The notes beneath the pieces were generated by a model that made no database searches, was not told the DNA's origin, and saw only the letters and a list, made by a program, of their open reading frames with translations. A stretch of 64,000 nucleotides of DNA from a virus (lineage: Duplodnaviria; Heunggongvirae; Uroviricota; Caudoviricetes): IMG/VR virus record IMGVR_UViG_3300021387_000074, one strand, 5' to 3'. Of this stretch, positions 17,107 to 61,600 are shown piece after piece. Position numbers and translations under genes: made by a program. Numbering within the stretch: position 1 is the stretch's first letter; every line of letters starts with the position of its first letter.

Positions 17107-17252
17107 GTATGCTGAATCTTTGTGCCGACCAAAGTTTCTTCCCTTTATGAGGGGGAATAGGAGCCGTCCTACCACTCAGCAAATTTGGCGAGGTGTATAG
17201 ATACATTAACAGTGTATTGCTTCATCAGCATAGGAACACCTTTTGCCATAGC

Positions 17253-19265: not shown

Positions 19266-19337
19266 GCACCATCACGGATTCGAACCGAGGCTTTCTGCTT
19301 GGAGGGCAGACGTGCTAGCCGCTAACACTAATGATGC
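19266..19337 (-). tRNA. tRNA-Gly (UCC)
   Basis: Acceptor GCATCAT/ATGGTGC. D-stem GTGT/GCAC. Anticodon arm TCTGC-CCUCCAA-GCAGA, with C at position 33. Confidence 0.55.
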
Positions 19338-19519
19338 ATAATTGGCGGAGTGTATAACTCTTTTTTTCCTAAAAAATTTTAAATAGGAACACTCTTTGCC
19401 ATACGGAAGCGGCGAGTCCCGACCTCGCATTTCCCGAAGGAACCCAACTTAGCAGGCTGGTGGTTTTGCCAATTCACCCACACTTCCAAAAAGTGGGTTA
19501 GCACGTATCCACTTTATTG

Positions 19520-20223: not shown

Positions 20224-20358
20224 AGATAAAAGTTGTTAGATCGCCGCGCAGCACAACCAAAGATTGTACATTAGTGTCCTTGCGGATTACCAATCTTCTT
20301 TATGGATATCTTTCGATAGGTCTTATCTAGGCACCCTTCCATAAATAAACAACTTAGC

Positions 20359-20428
20359 GGGCTAGGCAGGAATTGAACCTGCGTCCACGGATTAACAGTC
20401 CGCTGTATAACCATTTTACTACTAACCC
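20359..20428 (-). tRNA. tRNA-Asn (GUU)
   Basis: Anticodon arm GCGGA-CUGUUAA-TCCGT. T-arm GCAGG-TTCAATT-CCTGC. Confidence 0.6.
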
Positions 20429-22027: not shown

Positions 22028-22267
22028 AAAAGAAGGGCGTTTAATACGCATTCTCTAATAATGCAGTTGCCCTTCGCCCAAGTATTTATAGTGCGTCGTG
22101 GCGATACACTTGAAAAGATTTTATGTTGTTCTTTTCATCAACATCAAAATTATAACACGAAGTCATAATTTTGTAAAGGGATGGGCTACCACCCAACCTC
22201 CACCACCTAGTTTCATTAATGTTTCTGAGAAGGAAGCTTCAAAAAACTAGGAAACAAATACCTTAGT

Positions 22268-22340
22268 GGAGCATATCGGAATTGAACCGATGTCCAAACA
22301 ACTTCTTATATTAAACACGTCTTTACAAGCTTAAGTCATT
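22268..22340 (-). ncRNA. tRNA 3'-half-like element (T-arm ATCGG-TTCAATT-CCGAT plus acceptor strand), no 5' partner found
   Basis: The + strand carries 'ggagcatatcggaattgaaccgatgtcc'. The 5' acceptor complement is absent from the following 300 nt. Confidence 0.25.
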
Positions 22341-22866
22341 TGCTTTTCGGTAAGTGCAAATAACAAAACTAATAGATTTTAATTTTCGTTGGTAAGCACT
22401 GAATCTCCAAAAGTTCAAACCAACTATCAGATGGTGACACTTAGACCGAAATATCTGAGTCATTCGCTAAGTGCTTACGCAACCATTGCGTAAGAATCTT
22501 CGAAATCTTCGTCGATTATTTTTTTGCTATATTAAGGTTAGCAACCTTTGCTTGATGTTTAATTCTTCCGTTGCTGTCGAAACCAAGAATGCCCCATAAG
22601 AATCATTGTCCATTTACCACTTGCGGACTACAAGGTAGCCAAGCCAGGCTCAACTTAAAGCTCTAATCTTAGGCTTTTGTTTTCGCTTGATGATTTATTA
22701 TACTACTTTTTTAACTTTTTGTCAAGGGTTGTTTTAGCGGTTTGGTAATCATCATAAAACTCATACTGTCCACCGTAGTGATAACAAACCAAATACTTTG
22801 TAGGAGTTCTCCACAATTCCCAAACACCCTTTTGTAATAAAAATTGCCATCCCATAAGATTAACTC

Positions 22867-23598: not shown

Positions 23599-24624
23599 TT
23601 ACTCCTTAAAATAAGTATTATAAACATAATCAGCGATGTCAGGGAAAACTTCTTTAATTTTTATCATTTTCTCTGCCTCTGAATAGTCAGCTCCAAGTCC
23701 GCCAAACACACTTTTAAGATTACCAACCTTCCTATCAAACTGTTTAAGTTTTCTATTAAAGTCAGCAATAGTTAAAGCTGTTGGTGGATTCTGTGTATCG
23801 AACACTTCGAACACATCATGGTTTACAGAATCACAAAGAATAACAATATCTTTGTCTTTGTTTGTAATTGCTTCATAGTCACCCATGCAACAATACTCTG
23901 TATGACCAACTACCTGCTTAGGGAAATAAGGTTCTTTTATTAAACTGTTTGGTCTAATCCATAAACAGAACTGAGAAACCTCATCGCCACTTCCACTAAA
24001 GCAACCATCCCAATCAAGTTTTTCCTCAAACCCATTTGAGAAGTTTTCATCGCCTGGAATATGACTTCTTTCATGCCAACACTTATTAAGTGTTTCAACA
24101 GAGAATAAATTCTGATCCCATTCTACAACATCTTTGTAGAGTTCTTTGAAGTAAGCGTCTGCTTCTTCTTTAGATTCAAACTCTGTTCTATCTGCTTTTG
24201 GATAAACAGTATAAATGTCTCCCATAATTTCTTTCATATAAGAAACGGCAGTCTTTGAAAAACCTGCGTGAGAGAACACCCAGCCATCACATTCAAAAGC
24301 AAGATCGATTATATCCATATTTGCCATAAGTAAGGCGCGGATAACACTTATTTTACTGTTTTGATGTCCACTACAATTTGAGCCATATCTTGAGCCACTA
24401 ACATAACTCCAATCATGGTTACCAATTAAAAGTATTACTTTATTAGGATACTTTCTTTTGAATCTACAGATCGTCTGAAAGTTCTCACCCTGGTCATCCC
24501 ATACATTTTCCCAAGCATCAAAATAGTCACCAAGGAAAACTACAAAATCAACCTCATCAATTTTCTTCTGGGCAATTTCCCAATTATGACTACCATGAAC
24601 ATCGGGAATTATTAAAATTTTCAT
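23599..24624 (-). CDS. calcineurin-like metallophosphoesterase (candidate RNA 2',3'-phosphatase of a repair module)
   Basis: 'IIPDVHG', 'FLGDYFD', 'GNHDW' motifs. The likely start MKIL overlaps the ligase stop as ATGA, with an AAGGA RBS upstream. Confidence 0.65.
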   Translation of the reverse strand: MKILIIPDVHGSHNWEIAQKKIDEVDFVVFLGDYFDAWENVWDDQGENFQTICRFKRKYPNKVILLIGNHDWSYVSGSRYGSNCSGHQNSKISVIRALLMANMDIIDLAFECDGWVFSHAGFSKTAVSYMKEIMGDIYTVYPKADRTEFESKEEADAYFKELYKDVVEWDQNLFSVETLNKCWHERSHIPGDENFSNGFEEKLDWDGCFSGSGDEVSQFCLWIRPNSLIKEPYFPKQVVGHTEYCCMGDYEAITNKDKDIVILCDSVNHDVFEVFDTQNPPTALTIADFNRKLKQFDRKVGNLKSVFGGLGADYSEAEKMIKIKEVFPDIADYVYNTYFKE

Positions 24625-25838
24625 TTTATCAAATCCTTGTATACTGAACAATACATTTCATAACCCTTAGACTTTTCTTTCCAAGAATCCCAAAGTTCAT
24701 TTAAGTATTCATTAGAATCCTTACCGTCTGCAGCCTTGAAATATATTGGTCTCAAAGATGGTGGAACCTGAGAAGTTACCCACAAAGCAAATTCTTTACG
24801 ATTTTTCTTGTAATCATTCTCCCAAACATCTTTTGCATAATCCATTGTAGAAATAAACTCTCTCTTAAAGACTTTAATTTCTGCAACCTGCTTATCTGTC
24901 TTTTCCTTCAACTCAGGGAAATCATCATGGCTTTCAGTAATGCACAAACGCCAAATACCTTCAGGGGTATCGTGGTCGCGAATATACTTCAAAGCCAAGT
25001 AAGAAGGACACTTCATTTTTACACGAGTCCAATTCTCTTCGTCTACTACAACAAAACCTTCCTGGTTTTTTCCGCTGAACTTTTCAAGTGCGGCGAGAAT
25101 ATCTTCCTTCTTCTTCAAGTCGTAATAATGTGGAGTGTCATAAGGCAAACCAAACATTTTTATTACTTCTCTTGGGTCGTGTTCAATACCTTCTGCATCA
25201 CGAGCACCATGGAACCAAAGTTTTGTTTCTGTATATTCGCAAATGATTTTATTCTGTGGCGAAGTAAGTTCAAACATTAAAGTCCAACCATCAGGAATTC
25301 TTGAAACCCAATCCATTTCACAATGGAAGTAGTTCTTATCTGCATCCCAAACAGTTGCGCCTGGAGCATCTTTTGTTAATGCTTTTGTCATCAATTCCTG
25401 ATAACAATGAACATCTTCTGTTTCATAATCAATTGGAGTATAAAGTCCAACACCACCATTTGTTACCCAATAATCTGCCCCTTTATATTTGAACATCTTA
25501 ATAAGCTGTCCATCTATTTTTTCGGGAACAAACAAAAATTTTGAATCCCAATTTATTGTATCAGCATGTCCGTCGTTGATGTCAAAGAATTTCAAATAAG
25601 GAGCACAAATAACATTTACAGTTCCATCTTCAAGAACTTCAACAACTGTTCCGCGGCACTGCTTAACAATTTTATCTGAAAGGTCAGATTCTATAAGATC
25701 ATAAACCAGCATCCACCAATTTGGATTGTTAGGAAACTGTGTTACAGAACGTAAGCAATAAGGCTTCTTCTTTAATTTGTCCTGCCAATTCTTTAGGTTC
25801 TTTCTAATAAAGTTCTCAAGTTCTTCAAAGTTTTTCAT
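24621..25838 (-). CDS. RNA ligase (Rnl1-like nucleotidyltransferase)
   Basis: Motif I 'EKIDGQL' (KxDG), motif IV 'EGFVVV', motif V 'RVKMK'. The likely start MKNFEEL has an AAGGAG RBS 8 nt upstream. Confidence 0.7.
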   Translation of the reverse strand: MKNFEELENFIRKNLKNWQDKLKKKPYCLRSVTQFPNNPNWWMLVYDLIESDLSDKIVKQCRGTVVEVLEDGTVNVICAPYLKFFDINDGHADTINWDSKFLFVPEKIDGQLIKMFKYKGADYWVTNGGVGLYTPIDYETEDVHCYQELMTKALTKDAPGATVWDADKNYFHCEMDWVSRIPDGWTLMFELTSPQNKIICEYTETKLWFHGARDAEGIEHDPREVIKMFGLPYDTPHYYDLKKKEDILAALEKFSGKNQEGFVVVDEENWTRVKMKCPSYLALKYIRDHDTPEGIWRLCITESHDDFPELKEKTDKQVAEIKVFKREFISTMDYAKDVWENDYKKNRKEFALWVTSQVPPSLRPIYFKAADGKDSNEYLNELWDSWKEKSKGYEMYCSVYKDLIK

Positions 25839-25856
25839 TGTTTTGCTCCTTATACT

Positions 25857-25915
25857 AAAATTATACCACGAAAGCAAAAAAAAGTAAAGCCCATCTACTG
25901 TTAGGTGGGCTTATT
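25857..25915 (-). terminator. conserved terminator-promoter cassette (copy 1)
   Basis: + strand reads 'aaaattataccacgaaagc-aaaaaaaagtaaagcccatctactgttaggtgggctt'. On the minus strand this is hairpin, then TTTACTTTTTTT, then TGGTATAAT. Confidence 0.6.
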
Positions 25916-27483: not shown

Positions 27484-28077
27484 TTAGTATTTATAATTTT
27501 CAAGTTCATCTTCATAACCTTTACAGAACGAAAGGTCATCCATCATTTCGTCGAAGTCATCATAAATTTCCTTTCTGATTTCTTCGCGAAGCTTTGTTGA
27601 AGAAACATCAAGATCGATATCGCTTACATAATCATAAGCAATATCTTCAGGGAAATTATCTTCAAAACCTGGTCTACGGAAAACAATAAGTTTTGCTCTC
27701 TTGAGAATTTCTTCCCAATCACACCAAGTTTTGAATTTCTGAAAACTGTCAGAACCCATAGCGACGTAGTATTCATAGTCATCGAGAGATGACATAAATT
27801 TACCACTTGAAACTTTTCGCAGAGTATCTACGAAACGCCAACTGTCTCCAACATCTCTTTCAATGTCGGATACTTCTACGTTCTTAAAGCCAGCACAAAG
27901 CTGCTTTACTCTCTCGAACCTTTCGTTGAAGGAGAACATCTGAGTATTCTTCTTGTAATAACGAATGGTTGTAGGAACTACAATTACTTTATCAAACTTC
28001 TCAGACAGACGTTTAATAATTTCGATATGACCCTCATGACAAGGGTCAAAGCTTCCGCCATAGATTGCAATTCTCAT
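27484..28077 (-). CDS. nadD: nicotinate/nicotinamide mononucleotide adenylyltransferase (NadD/NMNAT-like)
   Basis: 'IAIYGGSFDPCHEGHIEI' matches the GGxFxPxHxGH nucleotidyltransferase motif. Size is 197 aa. Confidence 0.7.
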   Translation of the reverse strand: MRIAIYGGSFDPCHEGHIEIIKRLSEKFDKVIVVPTTIRYYKKNTQMFSFNERFERVKQLCAGFKNVEVSDIERDVGDSWRFVDTLRKVSSGKFMSSLDDYEYYVAMGSDSFQKFKTWCDWEEILKRAKLIVFRRPGFEDNFPEDIAYDYVSDIDLDVSSTKLREEIRKEIYDDFDEMMDDLSFCKGYEDELENYKY

Positions 28078-28137
28078 AATTACCCCTTAATCTTCTTGAT
28101 AATACAATTATACTACCAAGAAGAAGATTTGTAAAGA

Positions 28138-28503
28138 TTAGTAATCGCAGTCAAATACTGCTTTAATCTTAGAACTGTGGCAAAGACAGAAAGCGCCGTT
28201 CTCACCATTAGAGATCATCTGACAATCGTAATCATCAATTACAACTTTGTCTCCAATCTTGAATGCTGGGTCTTTTACTTTGTCGCCAATACTCTTAACA
28301 ACAAAATATTTTACGATGAGCTTTCCGCTTTTATTTGGATTGTTTACATTCTGTCCAGTAGCCTTTACTCCTGGCATAATCAAACCACTAGCAGTTTTTT
28401 CTACTTTTGATTCTGCAGGGACAGCTTCGCAAACTACCCATTCACCCATTGCTGTAATGTCTTTAATTGTTTTATCACTCATTGTTTTTTCTCCAATGAG
28501 CAA
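28138..28503 (-). CDS. GroES/Hsp10-like co-chaperonin
   Basis: Mobile-loop-like 'EKTASGLIMPG' and 'FKIGDKVVIDDY' resemble the GroES 'KSAGGIVLTGS' and 'VKVGDIVIF' segments. Confidence 0.45.
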   Translation of the reverse strand: MLIGEKTMSDKTIKDITAMGEWVVCEAVPAESKVEKTASGLIMPGVKATGQNVNNPNKSGKLIVKYFVVKSIGDKVKDPAFKIGDKVVIDDYDCQMISNGENGAFCLCHSSKIKAVFDCDY

Positions 28504-28520
28504 ATTATAACAATAGTATT

Positions 28521-28973
28521 TTAAATGTCAAGTGCTTCAAAGCCATTCTTTACTTCGCTTAAGTTACAGAACGCATTATCGAAGTCTTTTGAAACTGAAT
28601 CAACGATAAGCTGATAATCTGCATTTTCAATAGCGTTATTAAGAGAGTCCTGAACTGTTTCGAATTCGTCTACCACTTCCTTGAGATGTGTTACCATCTT
28701 ATCGACTTTACGAAGTTTGCTATTTGCATCTCCTAAATCGCTTTCGAGATCATCATAATCATTGCAACGACAATAATCATAAGGACAAGAGTTGCAGTCG
28801 ATTTCATCCTGGAGATTACAGTTTTCTACTTTGAGCTCTTTAATCTCTTCTTCAGGAGCAATTTTTGAAGTATTCCAACACTCTTCAAAGAGAGCCTTAT
28901 ATTCGTCGGGAATTTTCTTTTCTGACCTTGCGTTATGAATAGCAAACCACTGTTCAAATGTTGATGGAGCCAT
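28521..28973 (-). CDS. hypothetical protein (Cys-containing, acidic)
   Basis: 150-aa ORF. Confidence 0.45.
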   Translation of the reverse strand: MAPSTFEQWFAIHNARSEKKIPDEYKALFEECWNTSKIAPEEEIKELKVENCNLQDEIDCNSCPYDYCRCNDYDDLESDLGDANSKLRKVDKMVTHLKEVVDEFETVQDSLNNAIENADYQLIVDSVSKDFDNAFCNLSEVKNGFEALDI

Positions 28974-29275
28974 TAGAGCACCTCCCTAAAATCTTTTATA
29001 TACCGATTTTCTGCGGCGTAAATTTCTGTTTTAATTTTTATAGGTTCTTCTTCATTAGGAAACGCAAGAGCTTTTTTTTCTTCTTCACCTAAAATCTTAA
29101 AAACTAAAACCCAAACATTTTTAAATCTTGGGTCTTTAACTACCGCAACTTCAGTAATATGATTTGTATTAAAGCCAACCATGTTTACTTCATTCAGGTC
29201 AAAAGTTTCTGTTTCTTCTTCAAATGAATAAGAAGGTATATCAATAAACATAATTACCCCTGCAAATAATCCCAA
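28973..29275 (-). CDS. hypothetical protein
   Basis: 100-aa ORF. Confidence 0.4.
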   Translation of the reverse strand: MGLFAGVIMFIDIPSYSFEEETETFDLNEVNMVGFNTNHITEVAVVKDPRFKNVWVLVFKILGEEEKKALAFPNEEEPIKIKTEIYAAENRYIKDFREVL

Positions 29276-29490
29276 ATACTCTGACCAAGTTTGTCTTCGT
29301 CGGGAATTTCAATTTTGTCGGAATCAAAATGTTCAATAAGATGCCAAATAGCACTTACTGCGTCATTAAGATCTTCATAATCATTTTTTATTTTTTCAAT
29401 TTCTTTATCAAACTCTCCACGAGTTTCAGAATTGATAAATTCAACTTTAAGGAATTCGCTTTCCCAGCCCCAATCAGAATTACTTGCCAT
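29254..29490 (-). CDS. hypothetical protein
   Basis: 78-aa ORF. Confidence 0.4.
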   Translation of the reverse strand: MASNSDWGWESEFLKVEFINSETRGEFDKEIEKIKNDYEDLNDAVSAIWHLIEHFDSDKIEIPDEDKLGQSIWDYLQG

Positions 29491-29575
29491 TCTGAACCTC
29501 CATAAAAACTAAAATAGCATAAGATTTTCCATCTTACGCTATAATTATATCACGAGGACAAAATTTTGTAAATTA

Positions 29576-30367
29576 TTACAACCCGAAATTTATTTTCTTA
29601 AAATAATTTGGAAGCTCTGGGTCAAAATAAGGGATCTGAATAATTCTTATTTTATAAATTTGTTGATCATGAAGTTTTTTGATTTTATCAAAATGTTCAC
29701 CCTTAACTTCTGCACGAATAAACTCGTTTACTTCGTGATAAGTAAAGCCGAGTTTGTCTTCGTCAGAACTTCCACACATTCCATCAGAAGGTGTCTTATG
29801 GACAAGTTCTTTTGGCAACTCAAGATAATCACCAATAGCAATAACTTCTTCAGTTGTGAGTTTGCTGATTGGAGCAAAGTCGCCAGCAGAATCACCATAG
29901 AATGTAGAGAAGCCTACCATATCTTCAGAAAGATTACAAGTGTTTGCTACGCGGCAGTTGCCGATTGTTGCGGCTACACCATAGAGTGTGACCATTCTTA
30001 AACGAGCTGGGGTATTTGTCTTGTATTGATAAGTAGGGAACTCTTTTCCGTTCTCAGAAACAACGCGCATCTGTTCTGTGAGTCCTGAGTAAGCATTGCA
30101 AATGTTAATGCAATAACTCTTAATTCCAAGATGTTTAATAACAGCATCAGAGTCAGCAATATCTGACTGAACACCGTTAGGCATCTGAACACCGATAACA
30201 CGATCTTTGCCAAGTGCTTCAACGCAGAGTGCGGCTACAACAGATGAATCCTTTCCACCTGAAATACCAATTACCGCTTTTGTATTTTCATCACCGTTCA
30301 AAGAGAACCAGTTACGAATCCAATCAATACAATTCTGTGTGTGTTTAACAACATTAAAACCGCTCAT
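29576..30367 (-). CDS. nadE: NH3-dependent NAD+ synthetase
   Basis: PP-loop 'GISGGKDSS'. 'ARLRMVTLY'. 'GFSTFYGDSAGDFAPISKLTTEEV...HKTPSDGM', typical of NadE. Confidence 0.85.
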   Translation of the reverse strand: MSGFNVVKHTQNCIDWIRNWFSLNGDENTKAVIGISGGKDSSVVAALCVEALGKDRVIGVQMPNGVQSDIADSDAVIKHLGIKSYCINICNAYSGLTEQMRVVSENGKEFPTYQYKTNTPARLRMVTLYGVAATIGNCRVANTCNLSEDMVGFSTFYGDSAGDFAPISKLTTEEVIAIGDYLELPKELVHKTPSDGMCGSSDEDKLGFTYHEVNEFIRAEVKGEHFDKIKKLHDQQIYKIRIIQIPYFDPELPNYFKKINFGL

Positions 30368-30606
30368 TATATTTCCTCCAACTCAAAGTTATAAAGTGAT
30401 TTTCTGATATTACCAACATACCCGCTAAATTCAAATTTGTGTCCATCATCTTCATAAGAGATGTTAAGACCGTTCCAAGGATGCATTTGAATTGTGAGTA
30501 TATCTCCTTCGTTAAGTCTTTCAAAGTTTCCCGAAATCTTTGCTTTCTTTCGTTCAACTACTCTGTACTTCTTTATGAAATTGTCTAAAACCTCATCTCC
30601 ACTCAT
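30367..30606 (-). CDS. hypothetical protein
   Basis: 79-aa ORF. Confidence 0.4.
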   Translation of the reverse strand: MSGDEVLDNFIKKYRVVERKKAKISGNFERLNEGDILTIQMHPWNGLNISYEDDGHKFEFSGYVGNIRKSLYNFELEEI

Positions 30607-31193
30607 TAAATACCTCCGAGGTTTAATAATTTACTTTTGTATTCTGCCCAAGCATGCTTCATCATAATAGAAGTGTCGGAAGAACTCATTATGTTTTCAA
30701 CCTGAGAGTCTGAACGATAGCGTACTTCAATAAATTCATTTTCATCGAGTTTCTGCTGCTGCCTACAAGAGCCTTCTACTTCTATATAATAACAAGTCAT
30801 TTTATTATCCATAAAAGCAGGGTTAGGATTTGATTCATAAAGTTTTCTTATTTGAAGGATTTTATTTTTATCCAGCCCAATCTCTTCTTCGCATTCGCGA
30901 AGAATAGCATCAAGTGGGCTTTCACCTTCTTCAACCATTCCGCAAGGAAATTCTTCCATTACTTTATCTACACCGTGGCGATACTGAGCAGTCATTACAA
31001 ACCTTTCGTTGTAATCTGCGCAAGTTCTTGTAACAATTGCAGATACCCAGTTTGGTGCTTTTATTTTTACATAAGTACCATTCTTTCCATTTGGTGCTTT
31101 TTTATTTTCATTCACAACATCAAAGATTGGTGTGTGCAGCATTGTCTGAGGATCGTTCCAAGATTCAAATTTTAATTTACTATCGTCTGCCAT
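30606..31193 (-). CDS. Nudix hydrolase (candidate ADP-ribose/NAD-related pyrophosphatase)
   Basis: Nudix box 'GMVEEGESPLDAILRECEEEIGL' (GX5EX7REUXEEXGU). Confidence 0.75.
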   Translation of the reverse strand: MADDSKLKFESWNDPQTMLHTPIFDVVNENKKAPNGKNGTYVKIKAPNWVSAIVTRTCADYNERFVMTAQYRHGVDKVMEEFPCGMVEEGESPLDAILRECEEEIGLDKNKILQIRKLYESNPNPAFMDNKMTCYYIEVEGSCRQQQKLDENEFIEVRYRSDSQVENIMSSSDTSIMMKHAWAEYKSKLLNLGGI

Positions 31194-31201
31194 ATTTTCT
31201 C

Positions 31202-31621
31202 CTAAAAATGATCTACATATTGCGGATTTATTTCTCCAAGTCTTTTGTTTATTTCTTTTATAAATTTATCAATAAATTCTTCATCTTCATTTTCGTTTTT
31301 AATGCTAAATGCATAAGGGTTCTCGTCGTTGATAAACCAAACATGGACTTTTATTCTGTCATTTTCTGTTGCGTAGTCGACTTTCACTATTGTTTCTATG
31401 TTTATATAAATTTTAGTGTGATCACCACTTAATCCAAGAAATTGCTTAGTATTCTCATTCTCAAATAAAGCTATAAGTTCATCTCTTGAGATAAAATCAA
31501 AATCGACATAACTTAATTCTTTACTACCTATTGTGGTATAATCGAATTCTTTTTCTTCTATACTTATATAAGCAACATTTTTAATATTTAAGTAAGTGTC
31601 TTCTTTAATTTTTACTAGCAT
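31202..31621 (-). CDS. hypothetical protein
   Basis: 139-aa ORF. Confidence 0.45.
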   Translation of the reverse strand: MLVKIKEDTYLNIKNVAYISIEEKEFDYTTIGSKELSYVDFDFISRDELIALFENENTKQFLGLSGDHTKIYINIETIVKVDYATENDRIKVHVWFINDENPYAFSIKNENEDEEFIDKFIKEINKRLGEINPQYVDHF

Positions 31622-31637
31622 TTCTTACCCCACGCAA

Positions 31638-31695
31638 AAATTATACCATAAAAGCGAAAAAAAGTAAAGCCCACCAAATAGGTGGGCTGTTAAAG
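31638..31695 (-). terminator. conserved terminator-promoter cassette (copy 2)
   Basis: + strand reads 'aaaaattataccataaaagcgaaaaaaagtaaagcccaccaaataggtgggct'. Confidence 0.6.
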
Positions 31696-31706
31696 CAGCT
31701 GCTTAA

Positions 31707-32867
31707 TTAAACAGTTGCTCCATATTTTCTTGCAAATTTAGCACTGTCTCTACTCTTGATTTCAGCACCAATGATTTCCATATCTTCTTCATGGAGGTCG
31801 TCATCAAAGTTTTGTTCTTCTGCAGTTATTTCATCTGCGGTAAGATTATTTGTAAGATAGCTGCTGATTTCAGCATCTTCGTCAATACTGTATCTGAAGT
31901 GCTCAGGTACACCGAGATTCATCAAACGTTCTCTTTCTTCTGACTTCTTACACTTGAGAGAAGCCCATCTACCATCAATCATACAATCTCGCTGACAACA
32001 ATCGTGATAAACGATAGTTTCACTATTCTTAAACTTGATGAAGATGCTTACATTAAAGTTTTCTTCTTCTTCGGCTTCAACATTGAAGTAAGTGATTGCT
32101 TCACTTGGAGTCATATCTGGGAAGTTGTTAAGTTCTTCAACGAATGAAGAAAGAATATCCATAGATACGAACTTCTTACTACCAAGAGTTTTTACAATAT
32201 CTTCTGTGAGTTCTTTTCTTACGAGATTATCAGCGCAGTATGCTCTTACAACATTTGCATTTTCTGAAGTAAATTTGTAGTGATAGCGAATACGTCCTGG
32301 TCTTGATTTCAAGTTTTCATCAAGCTTCCAAACGTTATTTACTGTGAGCAAGAACAAGTTGCCAGCGCAGCCGCTGTTTCCATCCAATACAGAGAGAAGT
32401 GTTTCCTGCTTTGTCTGGTCATCTTCATTATCGCCACCATTGGCATTACCGCCCATAAACTTTTCAAATTCATCCATAAAGATGACACAATCTTTTATGT
32501 TCATAAGGAAGTCAGGCAGTCCTGGCAAAAATTCAGAAACAACAACAATTGGCTTCTTTCCGTTAAGCTGCTCCATTACAAGACGAGCAGTAAGTGTCTT
32601 TCCAAGTCCTTTGTCACCTGACAAAAGAACACCAAGGTTTTTGTCGGCTTTGTTCTTGCCATAAGCTTCTACAATATGGCTTGCAACATTTTGAGAATTT
32701 CCATAAATCTTTCCGTGAGAAAGTTTTACTTCTGTTTCTTCCAAATAACAGCCGATGAATTTGTTAAAACAAACCTTCCAAGTTCCCATCGGGACTTCTT
32801 TTCCAAATGTCAAATCAGATTCTTCTGCGTCAAAGAATCTAACCATGTTTTCAGTTCTTAACCACAT
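31707..32867 (-). CDS. AAA-family ATPase of unknown function
   Basis: Walker A 'GDKGLGKT', Walker B 'VIFMDEFEKF'. Confidence 0.6.
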   Translation of the reverse strand: MWLRTENMVRFFDAEESDLTFGKEVPMGTWKVCFNKFIGCYLEETEVKLSHGKIYGNSQNVASHIVEAYGKNKADKNLGVLLSGDKGLGKTLTARLVMEQLNGKKPIVVVSEFLPGLPDFLMNIKDCVIFMDEFEKFMGGNANGGDNEDDQTKQETLLSVLDGNSGCAGNLFLLTVNNVWKLDENLKSRPGRIRYHYKFTSENANVVRAYCADNLVRKELTEDIVKTLGSKKFVSMDILSSFVEELNNFPDMTPSEAITYFNVEAEEEENFNVSIFIKFKNSETIVYHDCCQRDCMIDGRWASLKCKKSEERERLMNLGVPEHFRYSIDEDAEISSYLTNNLTADEITAEEQNFDDDLHEEDMEIIGAEIKSRDSAKFARKYGATV

Positions 32868-32880
32868 ATCTTTTTACCTC

Positions 32881-32940
32881 ACTACAAAAATTATAACATG
32901 TTTCCATAAAAAAGTAAAGCCCACCAAATTGATGGGCTGT
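32881..32940 (-). terminator. conserved terminator-promoter cassette (copy 3)
   Basis: + strand reads 'aaaaattataacatgtttccataaaaaagtaaagcccaccaaattgatgggct'. Confidence 0.55.
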
Positions 32941-32943
32941 TGA

Positions 32944-33237
32944 TTATTTATTAAAACTTTCTACAAAGACGGGATGCGTTATAATCTGTTCAATTACTGC
33001 ATCTCTATCTTCCTTTTTTGGAAAATAATAAACCTCAAGGCTTGTATCATTACCGTCAAATCTTTCGATACCTAAGCAATAATACTCAGTGCGTTCATCC
33101 ATATAAAAGTTATTATCTTCATCTTCTTTGTAAGAAGACATTTTTACAATGCTTTTGATTGGAATATAATATTCCATATCTCCGAACTTATAACTGTTAT
33201 CTTCATCTTCCAAACAATTAGTTAATTTTATAAACAT
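32944..33237 (-). CDS. hypothetical protein
   Basis: 97-aa ORF. Confidence 0.4.
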   Translation of the reverse strand: MFIKLTNCLEDEDNSYKFGDMEYYIPIKSIVKMSSYKEDEDNNFYMDERTEYYCLGIERFDGNDTSLEVYYFPKKEDRDAVIEQIITHPVFVESFNK

Positions 33238-33238
33238 A

Positions 33239-40954: not shown

Positions 40955-41178
40955 TGCCCTACCTCCCTCCAGCCACGCTGTTTTATTACGTCTTTAACCG
41001 CATCAATTGCGGCATTTAATTTTGCCTTCATCTCTTTAAGATCTGAGGCACCAACTTCAATTCCGTAATAGCATAAACCGCTAGTGTTTCTATGAAATTC
41101 TACTCGATAGTTAATCTCGTTTGGAACATCGCTGAAGCTTTCAACTTCTTGTGGAGCAGATTGAACCTTCCCTCTCAT
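40951..41178 (-). CDS. hypothetical protein
   Basis: 75-aa ORF whose stop overlaps the next start. Confidence 0.4.
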   Translation of the reverse strand: MRGKVQSAPQEVESFSDVPNEINYRVEFHRNTSGLCYYGIEVGASDLKEMKAKLNAAIDAVKDVIKQRGWREVGQ

Positions 41179-41678
41179 TAAACCTCCTTTACGGAGATAG
41201 TAATGTTAGGAAATTCTTTTGCCCAGCCCTTGCGGTATTCTTCAAGATTGCTCATAAGTGCTTTGAAGTTTTCAAGCATATTATCTGAAACTTCAGCTGG
41301 AACATTCGAACGGTCTACACCATTTTCAATATCCGCTTTAATTCTTCCCTTACACAAATCATTGTCGTAACTATCTTTGAAGATAAGGATTGTTACATCC
41401 TGCTTATACAAAGCAGCAATTTCAAGAACGGCGCGGATTGATGAGTTATGGAGTGATGTAGCATCAAACCAAATCTCTTCTCTTTCTTCTGAGCAGAATT
41501 CTCTCAAAGAAGCATACGCCATTTCCCAAACTTTTTTATTTCTTGATTGATCGTTTACGTTTCCGCAAATCTGTTTCCTGATTGTGTCAGGGTTTATATA
41601 AAACGGAGTCTCTCCGCAATTATTTTTGTAATAAGTTGATTTACCTGAACCAGGCACCCCTACAGTTAATCTAACCAT
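41178..41678 (-). CDS. P-loop kinase (nucleotide/nucleoside-kinase family; polynucleotide 5'-kinase-like)
   Basis: 'GVPGSGKST' P-loop and 'INPDTIR' parallel the T4 Pnkp kinase 'GCPGSGKST' and 'INRDDYR'. Size is 166 aa. Confidence 0.65.
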   Translation of the reverse strand: MVRLTVGVPGSGKSTYYKNNCGETPFYINPDTIRKQICGNVNDQSRNKKVWEMAYASLREFCSEEREEIWFDATSLHNSSIRAVLEIAALYKQDVTILIFKDSYDNDLCKGRIKADIENGVDRSNVPAEVSDNMLENFKALMSNLEEYRKGWAKEFPNITISVKEV

Positions 41679-42500: not shown

Positions 42501-42698
42501 ATGAATACTTTTGATTGAACTTTAAGGAAGTTCATAGCATCCCTTAATTCTTTACCTATCCTTTTCACTACCTTCAGAACTCCATACACTAAGCACTATG
42601 AATGCATCATGTCGACCGTTAAAATTGGGCGAGGTGTATAACCAAGTCCCGTGTGTTTACCAATTTCACCACACCCCTCACGGATTGCTATCCTTTAG

Positions 42699-42750
42699 AG
42701 AGATGGCAGGGCTCGAACCTGCAGTGTCGGGATTTTACCATTTGCTTTAA
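42699..42750 (-). ncRNA. tRNA 3'-half-like element enclosed by the bipartite box motif
   Basis: GCAGG-TTCGAGC-CCTGC T-arm. Only about 28 nt lie 5' of it before the TGTTCCTAT motif. Confidence 0.3.
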
Positions 42751-42780
42751 AAAATAGGAACACCCTTTGCCTAAAATAGT

Positions 42781-43073: not shown

Positions 43074-45005
43074 TTAAGCAAACAACTTAATCAAATCATC
43101 TTTCGATGGGTTTGACAAGTCGATAAGCTCAATGTCATCTTCTGTCAACGGAATCATTTTGGTTTCGTCGTCAGGATCTGGAACCATTAAAGGTTCGTAG
43201 ATGACGTTAGCCCCTGCTTTCTCTAAGAGAGGCTTCAAGTCCACATAGGACTCAACTTTATTCCTCATCTGCTGCTGAATAATATCAGCGGCTGTACTTG
43301 TGGAAACTCTCTGTGCTCCTGCGGCAAGGTCAGCAAGAACAATCTTGTTGTTTGTTACAACACCAATCTTCTTCAAGCCACCGTCCTTAAACTCGAGCTC
43401 TGTTTCAAACACGATGTCGTTAGGATCTACCATATAGGCTTTACCACTTGAGCTCCAACCATGATGGTTGCAGAACTTAGACTTATCAATATCCTCGTTA
43501 GCAACGAGAATCTTGAATTTACACTTACCATTACCACTGTAAACGTTTACACCGATGTTTCCATCAACAGCTTCCTTGCCCACATAGAACAATTCAGTTG
43601 CTTCTGGGTCGGCATTTGTCATATCACCTGAGAAAACAAGTGTATGATTTTCGTCGTAGTAATCAGAACACCAACCATAGCGGTTGCCATTCTTATCAGT
43701 GTACCACAAGTCGAGGTCTCTCGCTCCCCATTCGTTTCTCCAATAGATGCCAAATATGTTATGGTCACCCTTCATAGGAACGTAAGAACCGAATGGTAAG
43801 TTACCAATAAAGTTTTTCTCTGAGGTAGGGCAAGAGAGTTCAACACCCTTTGGCAACATTACATTGTAGCCACTTACCTTTCCAGCCAAAGACTTAACAA
43901 CAGATTCTTCAATAAGATTGTACAACTTTACGAGGTAATCTGTATTGCAAGTTGCGATGTAATCATCACGAACAAACATTTTACCATTTCTGATAATGAA
44001 CATTTTACCTTCGCGGTCTTTACCGAGCAGACGTTCCTTGATTGACTGCATCAGCTGAATCTTACGATAGTTGTTAAGATTTTCTACTTCTTTTGACGCC
44101 TTGTACAAAGAAAGTTTTTCATTTCCCTGAGCTGCAGGTGTCAAACAAGTTTCCCAAAATCCCTTTACCAATGGCTTATGGTAAGCATCGGCATATTTAC
44201 GGATTTTGTTTACTGCCTTGTTGTTGGCAGCAGTTCCCTTCATAGCAAGGAAGATTGGCTTGTATCTGTGGAAGATTCTTGAAAGGATCTTCAACTGATT
44301 GTCTTTCAGAGTAGAGAGGTCGAAACTTCCCCTCTGATTGTACTGAAAACCGTTCTTTCCCTTGATTGTATAAAGGGTGTTCGCATCCTTAATGAGAGTA
44401 GCGGCACCTGTGTAGCGATAAACGATACAACGAAGCATTCCGAACTCATCTCTTGGAAGAATTCCAAGTTTCTCAGAAAGGATAGCCTGGGCTTCTTTAT
44501 TGCTGACTTCATCAAGATTCACATCTTTAATGAACCCATACTCAGTGAAGTATTCAACAATAACATCAATGGTTTCAGGCTTGAGTGCGATGCCACTTTT
44601 AAGCATTCCCATACATTTGTCAAAGATTTCCTTTGGTTCAGCGGGAGTGATAACTTTGAAATGGTCGTAAGGAATTACGACTGGTTCATCGTTTGGAACA
44701 TAACCATTTCCAAGAGCGAAGTCTGTTCCATAAGTTGTGGCGTAATGGAGGATCTGATCGACAAGCAACTCGAAACGATTCTTTGTTGTGATGTCGCTCC
44801 ATTCTTTATAAAATGTTGAGTTCGGATTGAAAGACTGCTCCTTCAACCAAGCAACAACATCTTTTGTGCAGCATTCAGGATGGATAATATACCCATACTT
44901 CATTGACTGCTCATTTACTTTAGCAAAGTTCTTTTCAGCACCTGGTTCTCTTAAAGCCAAGTGAAACATCGAAATAAGTTTAGTATTCATAACGATTTCC
45001 CCCAA
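43074..45005 (-). CDS. large hypothetical protein (643 aa)
   Basis: Long uninterrupted ORF flanked on both sides by tRNA/ncRNA clusters. No motif recognised by eye. Confidence 0.55.
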   Translation of the reverse strand: MGEIVMNTKLISMFHLALREPGAEKNFAKVNEQSMKYGYIIHPECCTKDVVAWLKEQSFNPNSTFYKEWSDITTKNRFELLVDQILHYATTYGTDFALGNGYVPNDEPVVIPYDHFKVITPAEPKEIFDKCMGMLKSGIALKPETIDVIVEYFTEYGFIKDVNLDEVSNKEAQAILSEKLGILPRDEFGMLRCIVYRYTGAATLIKDANTLYTIKGKNGFQYNQRGSFDLSTLKDNQLKILSRIFHRYKPIFLAMKGTAANNKAVNKIRKYADAYHKPLVKGFWETCLTPAAQGNEKLSLYKASKEVENLNNYRKIQLMQSIKERLLGKDREGKMFIIRNGKMFVRDDYIATCNTDYLVKLYNLIEESVVKSLAGKVSGYNVMLPKGVELSCPTSEKNFIGNLPFGSYVPMKGDHNIFGIYWRNEWGARDLDLWYTDKNGNRYGWCSDYYDENHTLVFSGDMTNADPEATELFYVGKEAVDGNIGVNVYSGNGKCKFKILVANEDIDKSKFCNHHGWSSSGKAYMVDPNDIVFETELEFKDGGLKKIGVVTNNKIVLADLAAGAQRVSTSTAADIIQQQMRNKVESYVDLKPLLEKAGANVIYEPLMVPDPDDETKMIPLTEDDIELIDLSNPSKDDLIKLFA

Positions 45006-45073
45006 TTATGAAAAAAGGCGAGGTGTATAATTCTTCATAAACGCTGAAATAAATAGGAACACCTTGTGCCATT

Positions 45074-45102
45074 TAATAATCTAATTATAACACGAAAATA
45101 AA
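45074..45102 (-). promoter_or_regulatory. consensus sigma70-type promoter with extended -10
   Basis: The minus strand reads cTTGACAaatttttattttcgTGtTATAAT, with a 17-nt spacer. Confidence 0.6.
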
Positions 45103-45108
45103 AATTTG

Positions 45109-45507
45109 TCAAGCAACTGAGTAACTAAGTTCCCAATCGCAAGGATCCCAGCCATAGTTGGCATCAACATATTCTCGCAATCTTGTGTCGTATTCATTGA
45201 TTGCCAGATCGAGATTTTTGGCAACGAAAGAATCTCGGCATCTTATACTGAGATTGTCTCGCATCCAATTATGCTGGTAATTATTAAAATTACCACCATT
45301 AAGAGTAATAACGACAACACAGAAATCTTTAATAATGAACTTAGTTGTGTAACTAAAGCATTCACTACTATCGTGATAATACCAAACCTTAGTAGTTATA
45401 TTGATTTCGACATCACCATTGAGAGTTTTAGTAGCAGCACTTTCAAAGCTCTCTACTTCTTTGTATGCAAGCAAAGACATACAACTTCTAAGTTCATCTA
45501 ACTTCAT
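45109..45507 (-). CDS. hypothetical protein
   Basis: 132-aa ORF. Confidence 0.45.
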   Translation of the reverse strand: MKLDELRSCMSLLAYKEVESFESAATKTLNGDVEINITTKVWYYHDSSECFSYTTKFIIKDFCVVVITLNGGNFNNYQHNWMRDNLSIRCRDSFVAKNLDLAINEYDTRLREYVDANYGWDPCDWELSYSVA

Positions 45508-45535
45508 TGTGAAGCCCCCAAAGATAAAATTTTAT

Positions 45536-48434: not shown

Positions 48435-48840
48435 TACCAAAGATAAGCTCTCTCGAACTCTCTCCAAAAAATTCTATTGCACATAAGCAAAAATGTCAAC
48501 AGAAGAAATAGGGAACACAACTCATTTCCCACATTCACGAACTAACCCCGTGGTCGGGCTTATCGCTTATTGCCCCTTACTTGCCTAACTCAGAGTTTAA
48601 TACCTCACTCCTCCTAGTTGTCGCTTGGCTTTATTCTCTGAACGGTTTTCACGAGCCGAGTTGTTAAGTTTTAGGCGAACAATATACCCACTAAAATGTT
48701 AGTCCGAAGACTAACATGAAGTTGCGTCCAATATCTTTATAAGAATAGGAATTGTATATGCCTTTGCTTATTTATAATCAATTCAGTTGTGTCCAGCCAA
48801 CTGAATTACCATACCAAATTAGGCGAGTTGTATGCCTGGC

Positions 48841-48913
48841 TCGCGAGGAAGGACTTGAACCTTCAACCTTCGGGTTTGTCGCCCGACGCTCTAGCCAATT
48901 GAGCTACTCTCGA
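48841..48913 (-). tRNA. tRNA with anticodon loop CGACAAA (anticodon ACA?), 3' CCA encoded
   Basis: D-arm AGCTC-AATTGGCTA-GAGC. Anticodon stem TCGGG/CCCGA. T-arm GAAGG-TTCAAGT-CCTTC. GCCA follows the acceptor. Confidence 0.5.
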
Positions 48914-48962
48914 AAAAATGGTTGATAGGAACAACTTGTGCCTTAATTTATCTTGTGCTATA

Positions 48963-48991
48963 ATTATAACACGAAAATAATTTTTTGTCAA
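48963..48991 (-). promoter_or_regulatory. consensus sigma70-type promoter
   Basis: The minus strand reads TTGACA, then 17 nt, then TgTTATAAT (from + strand 'attataacacgaaaataattttttgtcaag'). Confidence 0.55.
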
Positions 48992-61568: not shown

Positions 61569-61600
61569 AATTTTACCTCCAACGCAGATTTTTGTAAATA

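What the first reader, a model, noticed from the sequence alone, without database searches (positions are those of the whole stretch)
17107..17250. Conserved bipartite box element, about 5 copies, bracketing tRNAs, tRNA fragments or short hairpins
Read on the minus strand, the element is (A)TGGCAmAAGGTGTTCCTAT, then a variable insert, then TATACACCTCGCCAATTT. I found copies at about 17192-17246, 19330-19392, 42613-42770, 45012-45068 and 48823-48941. In two copies the insert is a tRNA or a tRNA 3'-half-like element. In three it is only a 20-30 nt hairpin. In one case the TGTTCCTA half supplies the 5' acceptor strand of tRNA-Glu(CUC) at 46103-46109.

The GGTGT and ACACC cores of the two halves are complementary, so they could form a processing stem around the insert. 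Alternative readings are a dedicated promoter/terminator pair for small RNAs, or the footprint of a mobile tRNA cassette. I do not recognise it as a known element.
Basis: seen in the sequence. Interest (0 to 1): 0.6.

Follow-up and report, generated by a model that had tools for sequence, protein, structure and literature searches.

The report
Phage Y-RNA-like RNAs with partner protein
The repeated "boxes" are the two strands of a conserved stem that defines a previously uncatalogued family of small phage RNAs. Some of these RNAs carry a tRNA look-alike, and across more than 100 phage contigs they sit next to one uncharacterised 640-residue protein, much as bacterial Y RNAs sit next to Ro60.

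Summary
The window holds six copies, one more than reported, all on the minus strand.

**Structure.** Each copy reads P1 helix, 5' bulge A-N-A, 6-bp P2 helix ending G-U, conserved UCCUAU, variable insert, then AC-P2', a single C and P1'. Both helices covary heavily: 10 of 11 pairs change on both sides across 86 distinct copies.

**Not catalogued.** The element is not a tRNA fragment, and Rfam 15 has no family for it.

**Linked protein.** It is genetically tied to a 638-aa protein gene (43074-44990) with no Pfam, PHROG or NCBIfam match. A strict pattern found at least one copy within 1.2 kb upstream, on the same strand, in 76 of 118 homologous loci. Arrays reach 6-9 copies. The cultured Synechococcus phage S-CRM01 has the pair inside its tRNA array.

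**Inserts.** They range from about 20-nt loops to tRNA-like domains. Some are permuted in the order T arm, closed acceptor hairpin, D arm, as in YrlA Y RNAs. These hit Rfam YrlA below threshold (36-37 bits against a cut-off of 69).

**Partner fold.** The protein is not detectably Ro60/TROVE. It models as a helical domain plus a TerD-like β-sandwich.

**Best reading.** These are modular small RNAs that form an RNP with this protein, a Y-RNA/Ro60 analogue probably acting on tRNA or in RNA repair. Binding and function are inferred, not shown.

The parts
17186..17248 (-). Copy 1, inside the tRNA array. It starts 3 nt after tRNA-Phe. Layout: P1 UGGC/GCCA, bulge AAA, P2 AGGUGU/ACACCU, UCCUAU, 33-nt insert with two mini-hairpins. 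The second hairpin has the same 7-nt loop (CUGUUAA) as the phage tRNA-Asn anticodon loop.
19343..19401 (-). Copy 2, between tRNA-Ser(GCU) and tRNA-Gly(UCC). P2 is GAGUGU/ACACUC, compensatory relative to copy 1. In the 29-nt insert UAGGA pairs with UCCUA (P3).
42628..42771 (-). Copy 3, about 300 nt downstream of the protein gene. Its 116-nt insert is a permuted tRNA-like domain:
- anticodon-stem 3' strand, 42728-42732
- T arm GCAGGUUCGAGCCCUGC, 42706-42722
- closed acceptor-like hairpin, 42672-42705
- D arm GUGAAAUUGGUAAACAC, 42653-42669
- anticodon-stem 5' strand, 42647-42651
   Evidence: (weak Rfam YrlA alignment, 14.4 bits)
45017..45070 (-). Copy 4, the copy nearest the gene. It ends 26 nt before the ATG of the 638-aa ORF. 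P2 is AGGUGU/ACACCU, with a 26-nt insert.
45084..45112 (-). Perfect sigma-70-type promoter (TTGACA-17-TATAAT with a TG extension) placed to start transcription a few nt before copy 4.
   Evidence: sequence
45011..45016 (-). U6 tract directly after P1' of copy 4, giving a terminator-like end. In relatives, 28 of 90 copies are followed by such a run, against 6% background.
43074..44990 (-). Gene for the 638-aa partner protein. It has no Pfam, PHROG or NCBIfam match. The model shows an N-terminal helical domain (about residues 1-372), a TerD-like β-sandwich (about 375-560) and a small C-terminal α/β part. Homologues lie beside the RNA element in more than 75 other loci.
48821..48943 (-). Copy 5. 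P2 is AGUUGU/ACAACU. The insert holds a normal-order tRNA-like gene with encoded CCA (48837-48913; anticodon loop CGACAAA with G at position 33). The orthologous copy in L003 has only a 26-nt loop, so the tRNA-like unit is an insertion into the loop.
48963..48991 (-). Perfect sigma-70-type promoter ahead of copy 5. Its spacer is nearly identical to that of the promoter ahead of copy 4.
48673..48763 (-). P2 is UACAAU/AUUGUU (5 of 6 pairs). In the 61-nt insert CCUAUU pairs with UAGUGGG, and there is a UUCG-capped hairpin. In the L003 orthologue the hairpin sequence differs but still pairs.

Best explanation
The boxes are the 5' and 3' strands of the protein-binding stem of a family of small, modular phage RNAs of about 45-145 nt.

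**Fold.** Each RNA forms:
- an outer helix P1 of 2-9+ bp of any sequence;
- a 3x1 internal loop, A-N-A on the 5' strand opposite a single C;
- a 6-bp helix P2 that always ends G-C, U-A;
- a conserved UCCU(A/U)U at the start of the enclosed loop.

**Variable module.** The loop holds one of several modules:
- a short A/U-rich loop, often closed by CCUA:UAGG pairing;
- hairpins;
- a permuted tRNA-like domain of the YrlA type;
- a normal-order tRNA-like unit with its own CCA.

**How the RNAs are made.** Some copies have their own sigma-70 promoter and a U-tract end. Others are released from tRNA precursors when neighbouring tRNAs are processed.

**Shown.** The fold, its covariation, its orientation, and its linkage to the 638-aa gene.

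**Inferred.**
- The protein recognises the conserved internal loop and UCCU and forms an RNP with these RNAs.
- The variable module gives each RNP a different contact, with tRNA-handling enzymes or tRNA-like substrates for the tRNA mimics.
- The RNP works in tRNA or RNA surveillance or repair during infection, by analogy with Ro60/Y RNA.
- The copy nearest the gene additionally lets the protein feed back on its own expression.
For: **The repeats are not chance.** 5 and 4 box matches against 0.05 and 0.09 expected.

**RNA-level helices.**
- On 86 distinct copies, 96.5% of cells pair, 10 of 11 pairs change on both sides (299 cells), and 0 of 500 shuffles reach this. Sliding the partner by 1-3 columns drops pairing to 32-46%.
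- In a test that does not preselect for pairing, 68 of 138 5' boxes have an exact Watson-Crick partner within 150 nt downstream, against 3 upstream.
- G-U pairs occur only in the sense of the tRNAs.

**Linkage to the protein.**
- tblastn finds the homologue immediately downstream of the element in 7 loci that were fetched by RNA pattern alone, down to 23% identity.
- Starting from the protein instead, 76 of 118 loci have at least one strict element within 1.2 kb upstream on the same strand. That is 129 elements, against 23 minus-strand hits anywhere in those loci.
- Tandem arrays of 3-9 copies occur.
- The pair is present in cultured phages S-CRM01 and S-CBWM1 and in the gut phage Phass-1.

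**Independent RNAs rather than only a leader.**
- Window copies 1 and 2 lie 25 kb from the gene, inside the tRNA array.
- Copies also lie downstream of the gene.
- Perfect promoters abut copies 4 and 5. In L044 P1 begins 7 nt after the -10 box and ends in a U-run.
- The gene-proximal copy of L003 carries the same insert as the window's tRNA-array copy 1.

**tRNA mimicry.**
- 13 of 90 copies contain a canonical T arm.
- The permuted domains match Rfam YrlA at 37 bits (E=3e-6) and 35.9 bits (E=2e-5).

**Context.** Rnl1 RNA ligase, a metallophosphoesterase and an AAA_33 kinase are in the window. A fused Metallophos+AAA_33 gene lies directly downstream of the protein gene in L170/L171.
Against: - There is no transcript, binding or structural data. 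RNP formation rests on gene linkage and on the pattern of conserved unpaired bases.
- The protein gives no hint of a known RNA-binding fold.
- About a third of homologous loci show no element with the strict pattern. Several of these have one by eye, with a shorter P1 or one mismatch.
- In many Bacteroidales-binned loci the element ends only 10-15 nt before the start codon and is followed by a U-run. That also fits a purely cis-acting attenuator.
- The copies used for covariation counts were picked with a pattern that requires pairing, so the 'percent paired' figure is partly circular. One search is the control for this.
- The RNA-repair role rests only on neighbourhood and analogy.
Confidence: 0.65

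Rival explanations
1. The element is only a cis-acting leader. It would be an attenuator or translational operator in the 5' UTR through which the 638-aa protein, or some other factor, controls the gene. The other copies would be by-products.
For: - The last copy ends 10-40 nt before the start codon in most loci.
- In the Bacteroidales-type loci, P1 plus a U7 run sits 14 nt before the ATG, like an intrinsic terminator.
- 28 of 90 copies are followed by a T-run, against 6% background.
Against: - Copies lie 25 kb away inside tRNA arrays, downstream of the gene, and in arrays of up to 9.
- Inserts include complete tRNA mimics.
- The gene-proximal and array copies are interchangeable between related phages.
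- A leader role for the proximal copy is compatible with, and is included in, the best explanation.
Confidence: 0.15
2. These are genuine Y RNAs (YrlA/YrlB) that work with a Ro60/Rsr protein of the host. The adjacent 638-aa gene would be unrelated to them.
For: - The architecture is the same: a terminal stem plus a variable module, and a permuted tRNA-like domain.
- There are sub-threshold YrlA hits.
- The 5' strand GGC-A-N-A-N-G and the CUAU resemble the YrlA GNCGAAN0-1G and YUAY motifs described in PMC4201824.
Against: - YrlA scores are 14-37 bits against a gathering score of 69. In one search only the tRNA-like core (model positions 23-87) aligns, not the Ro60-binding part.
- Position 4 of the motif is A in 86 of 86 copies, where YrlA has G.
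- No TROVE protein is found among the window ORFs scanned.
- The conserved linkage is to a different protein across hosts as far apart as cyanobacteria and Bacteroidales.
Confidence: 0.07
3. The stems are processing signals, or a scaffold, that bracket cargo RNAs (tRNAs, tRNA halves, hairpins) so that a nuclease can excise them.
For: - Some inserts are tRNA-like units with their own acceptor stem and CCA. RNase P and 3' trimming should release them.
- The tRNA-like unit of copy 5 is an insertion relative to L003.
Against: - Most inserts are 16-35 nt, A/U-rich and not conserved. The conserved parts are the stem, the bulges and UCCU.
- The helices (2-9 bp plus 6 bp, interrupted) are short for RNase III. 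This point rests on my own knowledge of RNase III substrates.
- The idea does not explain the linkage to the protein gene.
Confidence: 0.06
4. It is a DNA-level repeat: terminal inverted repeats of a miniature mobile element, or a recombination site that shuffles tRNA cassettes.
For: - The repeat is inverted, with a variable interior.
- Copy number and position differ between related phages.
Against: - The arms differ in sequence from copy to copy but stay complementary within each copy. Selection on pairing produces that pattern; selection on a transposase-binding site does not.
- G-U pairs are tolerated on one strand only.
- The copies are strictly co-oriented with the tRNAs and the protein gene.
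- I did not see target-site duplications in the flanks printed; no dedicated search was made.
Confidence: 0.02

Closest known systems
Bacterial Y RNAs YrlA/YrlB with Ro60 (Rsr); Rfam RF02553; Chen et al. 2014, PMC4201824
   Same: - Small RNAs whose 5' and 3' ends form a stem with a conserved bulged protein-binding site.
- A variable module. In the long forms it is a tRNA-like domain in the permuted order V loop, T arm, closed acceptor hairpin, D arm, with the same D arm sequence UAGCUCA..GGUAGAGC.
- Several different RNAs per genome.
- Genes placed next to the partner protein gene on the same strand, and co-transcribed with tRNAs.
- RNA-repair genes in the neighbourhood.
   Different: - The stem motif differs: A-N-A opposite C, then GU-UCCU, against GNCGAAN0-1G.
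- Rfam scores stay far below threshold.
- Most members have no tRNA-like domain.
- Arrays reach 9 copies.
mRNA leaders that mimic the RNA ligand of an RNA-binding protein, such as ribosomal-protein leaders (own knowledge)
   Same: A copy of the protein's presumed RNA target sits just before its own start codon, sometimes with a U-run. That suits feedback control.
   Different: Here the 'mimic' and the presumed real targets belong to one family, are interchangeable between phages, and can have their own promoters.
Small stable RNAs encoded within phage tRNA clusters, such as T4 species 1 and 2 (RNA C and RNA D) (own knowledge, not tested here)
   Same: tRNA-sized stable RNAs that occupy 'slots' in a phage tRNA array and are released by tRNA processing.
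   Different: No sequence or structure comparison was made. No partner protein is known for the T4 RNAs.
TerD-domain proteins (PDB 2qz7, 2kxt)
   Different: - There is no sequence-level TerD hit (Pfam) in any of 32 family members.
- The domain is fused to a 370-residue helical domain with no specific structural relative.
- No link between TerD and RNA is known to me.

Membership tests
Y RNA, YrlA subfamily (Rfam RF02553) | Score at or above the curated Rfam gathering threshold (69 bits) | tested here: not met
   14.4 bits for window copy 3. 37.0 and 24.9 bits for two L057 copies. 35.9 bits for the S-CRM01 copy. The short copies give no hit at all.
Y RNA, YrlA subfamily (Rfam RF02553) | Stem formed by the 5' and 3' ends that encloses the rest of the RNA | tested here: met
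   P1 and P2 covary: 10 of 11 pairs change on both sides, 96.5% of cells pair. Control without preselection for pairing.
Y RNA, YrlA subfamily (Rfam RF02553) | GNCGAAN0-1G motif on the 5' strand, the presumed Ro60 contact (PMC4201824) | tested here: not met
   The consensus here is (G)(G)C-A-N-A-N-N. The fourth position is A in 86 of 86 copies, and the fifth is variable. This is a resemblance only.
Y RNA, YrlA subfamily (Rfam RF02553) | tRNA-like domain in the order V, T arm, acceptor-like hairpin, D arm | tested here: met
   Met only in a minority of copies: window copy 3, L003 7728-7852, L029 10179-10304, L056 3829-3950, L057 3221-3347, L092 3358-3479 and S-CRM01 L169 2537-2654. Other copies have a normal-order tRNA-like unit or none.
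Y RNA (any subfamily) | Encoded next to a Ro60/Rsr (TROVE-domain) gene on the same strand | tested here: not met
   - The adjacent conserved protein has no TROVE hit in Pfam, for the window protein or for 32 family members.
- A family profile searched against PDB sequences finds no Ro60.
- Foldseek against PDB finds nothing at E<=0.001.
- No TROVE hit in any of the 39 window ORFs scanned, which include all of 189 aa or more.
Y RNA (any subfamily) | Bound by Ro60 in vivo | not testable with these tools
   Needs immunoprecipitation or in-vitro binding.
   - The boxes lie outside every ARAGORN and Rfam tRNA call.
- There is no tRNA hit on the short copies even at E<=10.
- tRNA-like sequence occurs only inside the inserts of some copies.
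Cis-regulatory 5' leader or attenuator | Found in the 5' UTR of the regulated gene, and essentially only there | tested here: inconclusive
   The position just upstream of the gene is met in 76 of 118 loci. Copies also occur inside tRNA arrays, downstream of the gene and 25 kb away.
Miniature inverted-repeat mobile element | Terminal inverted repeats of shared sequence, with target-site duplication | tested here: inconclusive
   The shared-sequence feature is not met: arm sequences differ between copies and change in a compensatory way. For target-site duplications I only inspected the flanks printed and saw none; no dedicated search was made.
TerD family (for the partner protein) | TerD β-sandwich fold and a TerD sequence signature | tested here: inconclusive

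The most novel reading that the evidence does not exclude
This is an independent, phage-borne counterpart of the Ro60/Y RNA particle.

- A protein of new architecture (a helical domain of unknown fold plus a TerD-like domain) is loaded with a repertoire of modular RNAs.
- Their variable modules include tRNA mimics in both permutations and, in one case, an exact copy of the tRNA-Asn anticodon loop.
- These modules direct the particle to tRNAs or to tRNA-cleaving or tRNA-modifying host factors.
- The phage would then protect, repair or triage its own large tRNA set, or decoy anticodon nucleases.

The RNP class would be widespread in jumbo and T4-like phages of gut, rumen and aquatic bacteria.
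Probability: 0.35. Interest if true: 0.9.

Novelty: new variant of a known kind. Interest (0 to 1): 0.8.

Why it matters
**Unannotated space.** Phage tRNA islands hold much unannotated sequence. This result assigns part of it to a well-supported structured RNA family. In S-CRM01 it shows that an annotated ORF (g173c) probably overlies RNA genes.

**A pairing of two unknowns.** The work pairs that RNA with a large protein family that has no annotation: more than 960 homologues and no Pfam domain. Each now constrains the other's function.

**Meaning if the RNP reading holds.** The Y-RNA design, a protein-binding stem plus an exchangeable module that includes a permuted tRNA mimic, would not be tied to Ro60. 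That bears on the long-open question of what the tRNA-like module of Y RNAs is for.

**Direct tests are possible.** The cultured phages S-CRM01 and S-CBWM1 carry the RNA-protein pair.

Tried and rejected
- **Rfam.** Gathering-threshold scan of the whole window, and E<=10 scans of individual copies. No family covers the element; only sub-threshold YrlA hits appear on the long copies.
- **Megablast of the tRNA region against INPHARED phages.** No match.
- **First viral pattern scan.** It returned 40 loci, but about two thirds were chance matches, as expected for 18 specified bases. I kept only those with GGCA and a complementary arm.
- **K-turn reading of the 3-nt bulge.** Rejected. The pair after the bulge is Watson-Crick or G-U rather than G·A, and a C lies opposite the bulge.
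- **Self-cleaving ribozyme cores** (hammerhead, hairpin, twister and others). No Rfam hit. The CUGAUGA in copy 1 is not conserved in the other copies.
- **Anticodon-arm mimicry as a general feature of inserts.** Found only in window copy 1 and its L003 orthologue. The other hits of that screen are T arms.
- **80-nt spacer 17107-17186 inside the reported interval.** Its fold is no better than shuffles (z = -1.2).
- **Very relaxed pattern scans of the window.** Noise only, with no further credible copies.
- **Literature searches.** Searches on Y RNA, YrlA, jumbo-phage RNA motifs, S-CRM01 and TerD/TROVE found no description of this RNA or protein.

Full report
**1. What the window is**

All 31 tRNA and tmRNA calls lie on the minus strand. 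Rfam adds a full-length ROOL RNA (46612-47180) and a tmRNA (22264-22595).

Pfam hits include a T4-type RNA ligase 1, two metallophosphoesterases, an AAA_33 kinase, NAD-salvage enzymes, a GGDEF protein, ClpP and a GIY-YIG endonuclease. This is the accessory region of a large, uncultured phage. Megablast against deposited phages finds nothing.

**2.

- The 5' box matches five times at up to 3 mismatches, against 0.05 expected. The 3' box matches four times against 0.09 expected. All matches are on the minus strand.
- Exact patterns recover five box pairs.
- A pairing-aware scan finds a sixth copy at 48673-48763. Its inner helix is UACAAU/AUUGUU, and it has an orthologue in a related contig.
- The TGTTCCTA at the start of tRNA-Glu(CUC) is a coincidence. 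It is the tRNA's own acceptor strand and has none of the other features.

**3. Anatomy**

Read 5' to 3' on the minus strand, each copy has these parts:
- P1, an outer helix. In this window it is (U/A)GGC paired with GCC(A/U).
- A 3-nt bulge, A-N-A.
- P2, a 6-bp helix ending G-U on the 5' strand.
- UCCUAU.
- An insert.
- (U)AU.
- P2', beginning A-C.
- One unpaired C.
- P1'.

The window's copies alone already show compensatory changes. The P2 pairs are AGGUGU/ACACCU, GAGUGU/ACACUC, AGUUGU/ACAACU, and GGGUGU/ACACCU with a G-U.

**4. It is a widespread RNA structure**

- A pattern scan of IMG/VR returned 40 loci. Fourteen have the full anatomy with new, complementary helix sequences.
- With more loci in hand, P1 proves to be a generic helix of 2-9 or more bp. 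Examples are CGCUAUCGC/GCGAUAGCG, GGAUGCGUC/GACGCAUCC and AGAGAAGAU/AUCUUCUUU.
- I trimmed 86 distinct copies to their conserved core and aligned them without gaps.
  - 96.5% of cells pair.
  - 10 of 11 pairs change on both sides (299 cells).
  - No shuffle out of 500 reaches these values.
  - Sliding the partner strand by 1-3 columns collapses pairing to 32-46%.
- Those copies were chosen with a pattern that demands pairing, so I ran a control that does not. Of 138 5' boxes (A-N-A, N4, GUUCCU), 68 have the exact Watson-Crick partner string within 150 nt downstream and 3 have it upstream.
- Invariant or nearly invariant unpaired positions are the two A's of the bulge, UUCCU, the A-C that opens P2', and the single C. 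That pattern suggests a specific recognition surface.
- Rfam 15 has no family for the element.

**5. The key context is a linked protein gene**

- Copy 4 ends 26 nt before the ATG of a 638-aa ORF (43074-44990), and copy 3 follows that ORF.
- The protein has no Pfam, PHROG or NCBIfam match, but has more than 960 homologues. All named ones are 'hypothetical'.
- In seven loci fetched by RNA pattern alone, a homologue lies directly downstream of the element, down to 23% identity.
- Starting from the protein, I fetched 80 viral loci and 48 MAG-binned loci. The MAGs are from Bacteroidales, Muribaculaceae, Fibrobacter, Treponema and others, mostly rumen or gut.
- A strict pattern finds at least one element within 1.2 kb upstream on the same strand in 76 of 118 usable loci. 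That gives 129 elements, against 23 minus-strand hits anywhere in those loci. Several 'negative' loci have the element by eye, with a 2-bp P1 or one mismatch.
- Tandem arrays are common: about 9 copies in L057, 6 in L073, and 6 in L092 by the same pattern (a seventh was seen only in the earlier scan), 4 in L060.
- Deposited genomes carry the pair too.
  - In Synechococcus phage S-CRM01 the homologue g174 sits in the middle of the tRNA array. It has five tandem elements upstream and one downstream. The small annotated ORF g173c overlies these RNAs.
  - S-CBWM1 has one copy upstream.
  - The gut phage Phass-1 has three copies 1.5 kb downstream.

**6. What the inserts are**

- Most are 16-35 nt, A/U-rich and unconserved. 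A UAGG often pairs back to the conserved CCUA.
- 13 of 90 copies contain a canonical T arm.
- One class is a permuted tRNA-like domain. It runs anticodon-stem 3' strand, variable loop, T arm, a closed acceptor-like hairpin, D arm (UAGCUCA..GGUAGAGC), then anticodon-stem 5' strand. This is the design of bacterial YrlA Y RNAs (PMC4201824).
  - Window copy 3 has this design and aligns weakly to Rfam YrlA (14.4 bits).
  - Cleaner relatives reach 37 bits (E=3e-6, tRNA-like core only) and 35.9 bits (E=2e-5, full length). All are below the 69-bit threshold.
- A second class is a normal-order tRNA-like unit with its own acceptor stem and encoded CCA. Its anticodon arm is shortened or odd. Examples are window copy 5, L017 and L057 3097-3212.
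- The orthologue of copy 5 in L003 has only a 26-nt loop, so whole tRNA-like units can be inserted into the loop.

**7. The partner protein**

- An AlphaFold2 model (pLDDT 84.5, pTM 0.83) shows a helical N-terminal domain of about 370 residues, a β-sandwich and a small C-terminal part.
- Foldseek against PDB gives nothing significant.
- None of 32 family members hits TROVE or TerD in Pfam.
- A family profile finds no Ro60 among PDB sequences.
- The protein is therefore not a detectable Ro60. It resembles Ro60 only in outline, as a helical domain followed by a probable cation-binding domain.

**8. Independent RNAs or a leader?**

For independent RNAs:
- Window copies 1 and 2 occupy tRNA-sized slots in the tRNA array, 25 kb from the gene and 3 nt after tRNA-Phe. 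L025 and L037 show the same arrangement.
- Perfect sigma-70 promoters with near-identical spacers precede copies 4 and 5.
- In L044 the -10 box is 7 nt before P1, and P1' runs into a U-tract.
- 28 of 90 copies are followed by a T-run, against 6% background.
- The gene-proximal copy of L003 carries the same insert as the window's array copy 1.

For a cis role of the proximal copy:
- It ends 10-40 nt before the start codon in most loci. In the Bacteroidales-type loci it looks like a terminator 14 nt before the ATG.

I read this as both. The RNAs are the protein's ligands, and the copy on the mRNA offers feedback control.

**9. Mechanism, and how sure I am**

- **Shown:** the fold, its covariation, its strand, its modular inserts, the gene linkage, and promoters or U-tracts on some copies.
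- **Inferred with fair confidence:** the protein binds the conserved internal loop and UCCU, so these RNAs and the protein form an RNP.
- **Inferred by analogy and neighbourhood only:** the RNP acts on tRNAs or damaged RNA. The supporting observations are:
  - the tRNA mimics;
  - the placement in tRNA arrays;
  - Rnl1, phosphoesterase and kinase genes in the window;
  - a fused Metallophos+AAA_33 (Pnkp-like) gene right after the protein gene in L170/L171, and AAA_33 genes nearby in L172 and L173.
  - This association is not universal.

**10. Comparison and novelty**

- The system works like Y RNA/Ro60. It fails membership tests for YrlA on the Rfam threshold, the Ro60-contact motif and the TROVE neighbour.
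- The tRNA-like module of the long copies is probably related to, or convergent with, that of YrlA.
- I found no description of the RNA or the protein in Rfam 15, Pfam, PHROGs, NCBIfam or the searchable literature. Subscription-only papers are not covered.
- I rate it a new variant of a known kind: the Y-RNA design with a new stem motif and a new protein partner. It may prove to be a new RNP class.

Noticed in passing
window 46612-47180 (-): A full-length ROOL RNA (Rfam RF03087, 270 bits, model positions 1-574) lies directly 5' of tRNA-Arg(UCU) in the same RNA-rich island as copies 3-6.
   Followed up: no
window 22264-22595 (-): A phage-encoded tmRNA (Rfam 101.5 bits). ARAGORN gives the tag peptide DEDFEDSYAMVA.
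   Followed up: no
window 17203-17219 (-), within copy 1; also L003 9855-9923: A hairpin AUACA-CUGUUAA-UGUAU has a 7-nt loop identical to the anticodon loop of the phage's own tRNA-Asn(GUU) (20357-20428). It is conserved in the related phage although the surrounding P2 helix changed. It may be an anticodon-arm mimic. No other copy shows this.
   Followed up: partly
window 42785-42961 (-): Between the protein gene and copy 3, GGGAAUG (about 42955-42961) can pair with CAUUCCU just after a T arm (GGGGGUUCGACUCCCUC). The two strands enclose about 165 nt. The 3' end aligns weakly to the 3' end of tmRNA (9.5 bits). It may be a tRNA-like or tmRNA-like RNA with a large insertion. A weak tRNA call (34 bits) lies next to it at 42967-43049.
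   Followed up: no
window 48363-48434 (-), 61600-61670 (-), 45535-45607 (-), 48837-48913 (-): Unusual tRNAs. One has a 4-base anticodon call (GUAA) and one a 2-base call (CA), yet both score 50-60 bits in Rfam or ARAGORN. There are also tRNA-Asn(AUU) and a tRNA-Cys(ACA)-like unit with A34 anticodons.
   Followed up: no
window 23599-25877 (-) and 41178-41678 (-): An RNA-repair toolkit: a metallophosphoesterase overlapping a T4-type RNA ligase 1 gene, and a separate AAA_33 (polynucleotide-kinase-like) gene about 1.4 kb downstream of the partner-protein gene.
   Followed up: partly
L169 2710-2856 (NC_015569 132391-132537), S-CRM01 g173c: The annotated 48-aa minus-strand ORF g173c lies on top of the tandem RNA elements upstream of g174. 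It is probably not a real gene.
   Followed up: partly
window about 48600-48640 (-); L003 orthologous position: A block GCGACAACUAGGAGGAGUGAGGUAUUAAA downstream of copy 6 is identical between the window and L003, although the flanks diverge. It has no obvious ORF start and remains unexplained.
   Followed up: no
window 45084-45112 and 48963-48991 (-): The two perfect promoters share nearly the whole spacer (TTGACAAA..TTATTTTCGTGTTATAATTA). This suggests a phage-specific promoter class or a duplicated promoter-RNA unit. Further 12/12 and 11/12 promoters lie at 47618-47646 and 48471-48499.
   Followed up: no
window 27484-34480 (-): A cluster of NAD-salvage and NAD-synthesis genes: a NadD-like cytidylyltransferase, NAD synthase, NUDIX and NAPRTase. 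The same kinds of genes sit next to the partner-protein gene in L170, L173 and Phass-1.
   Followed up: no
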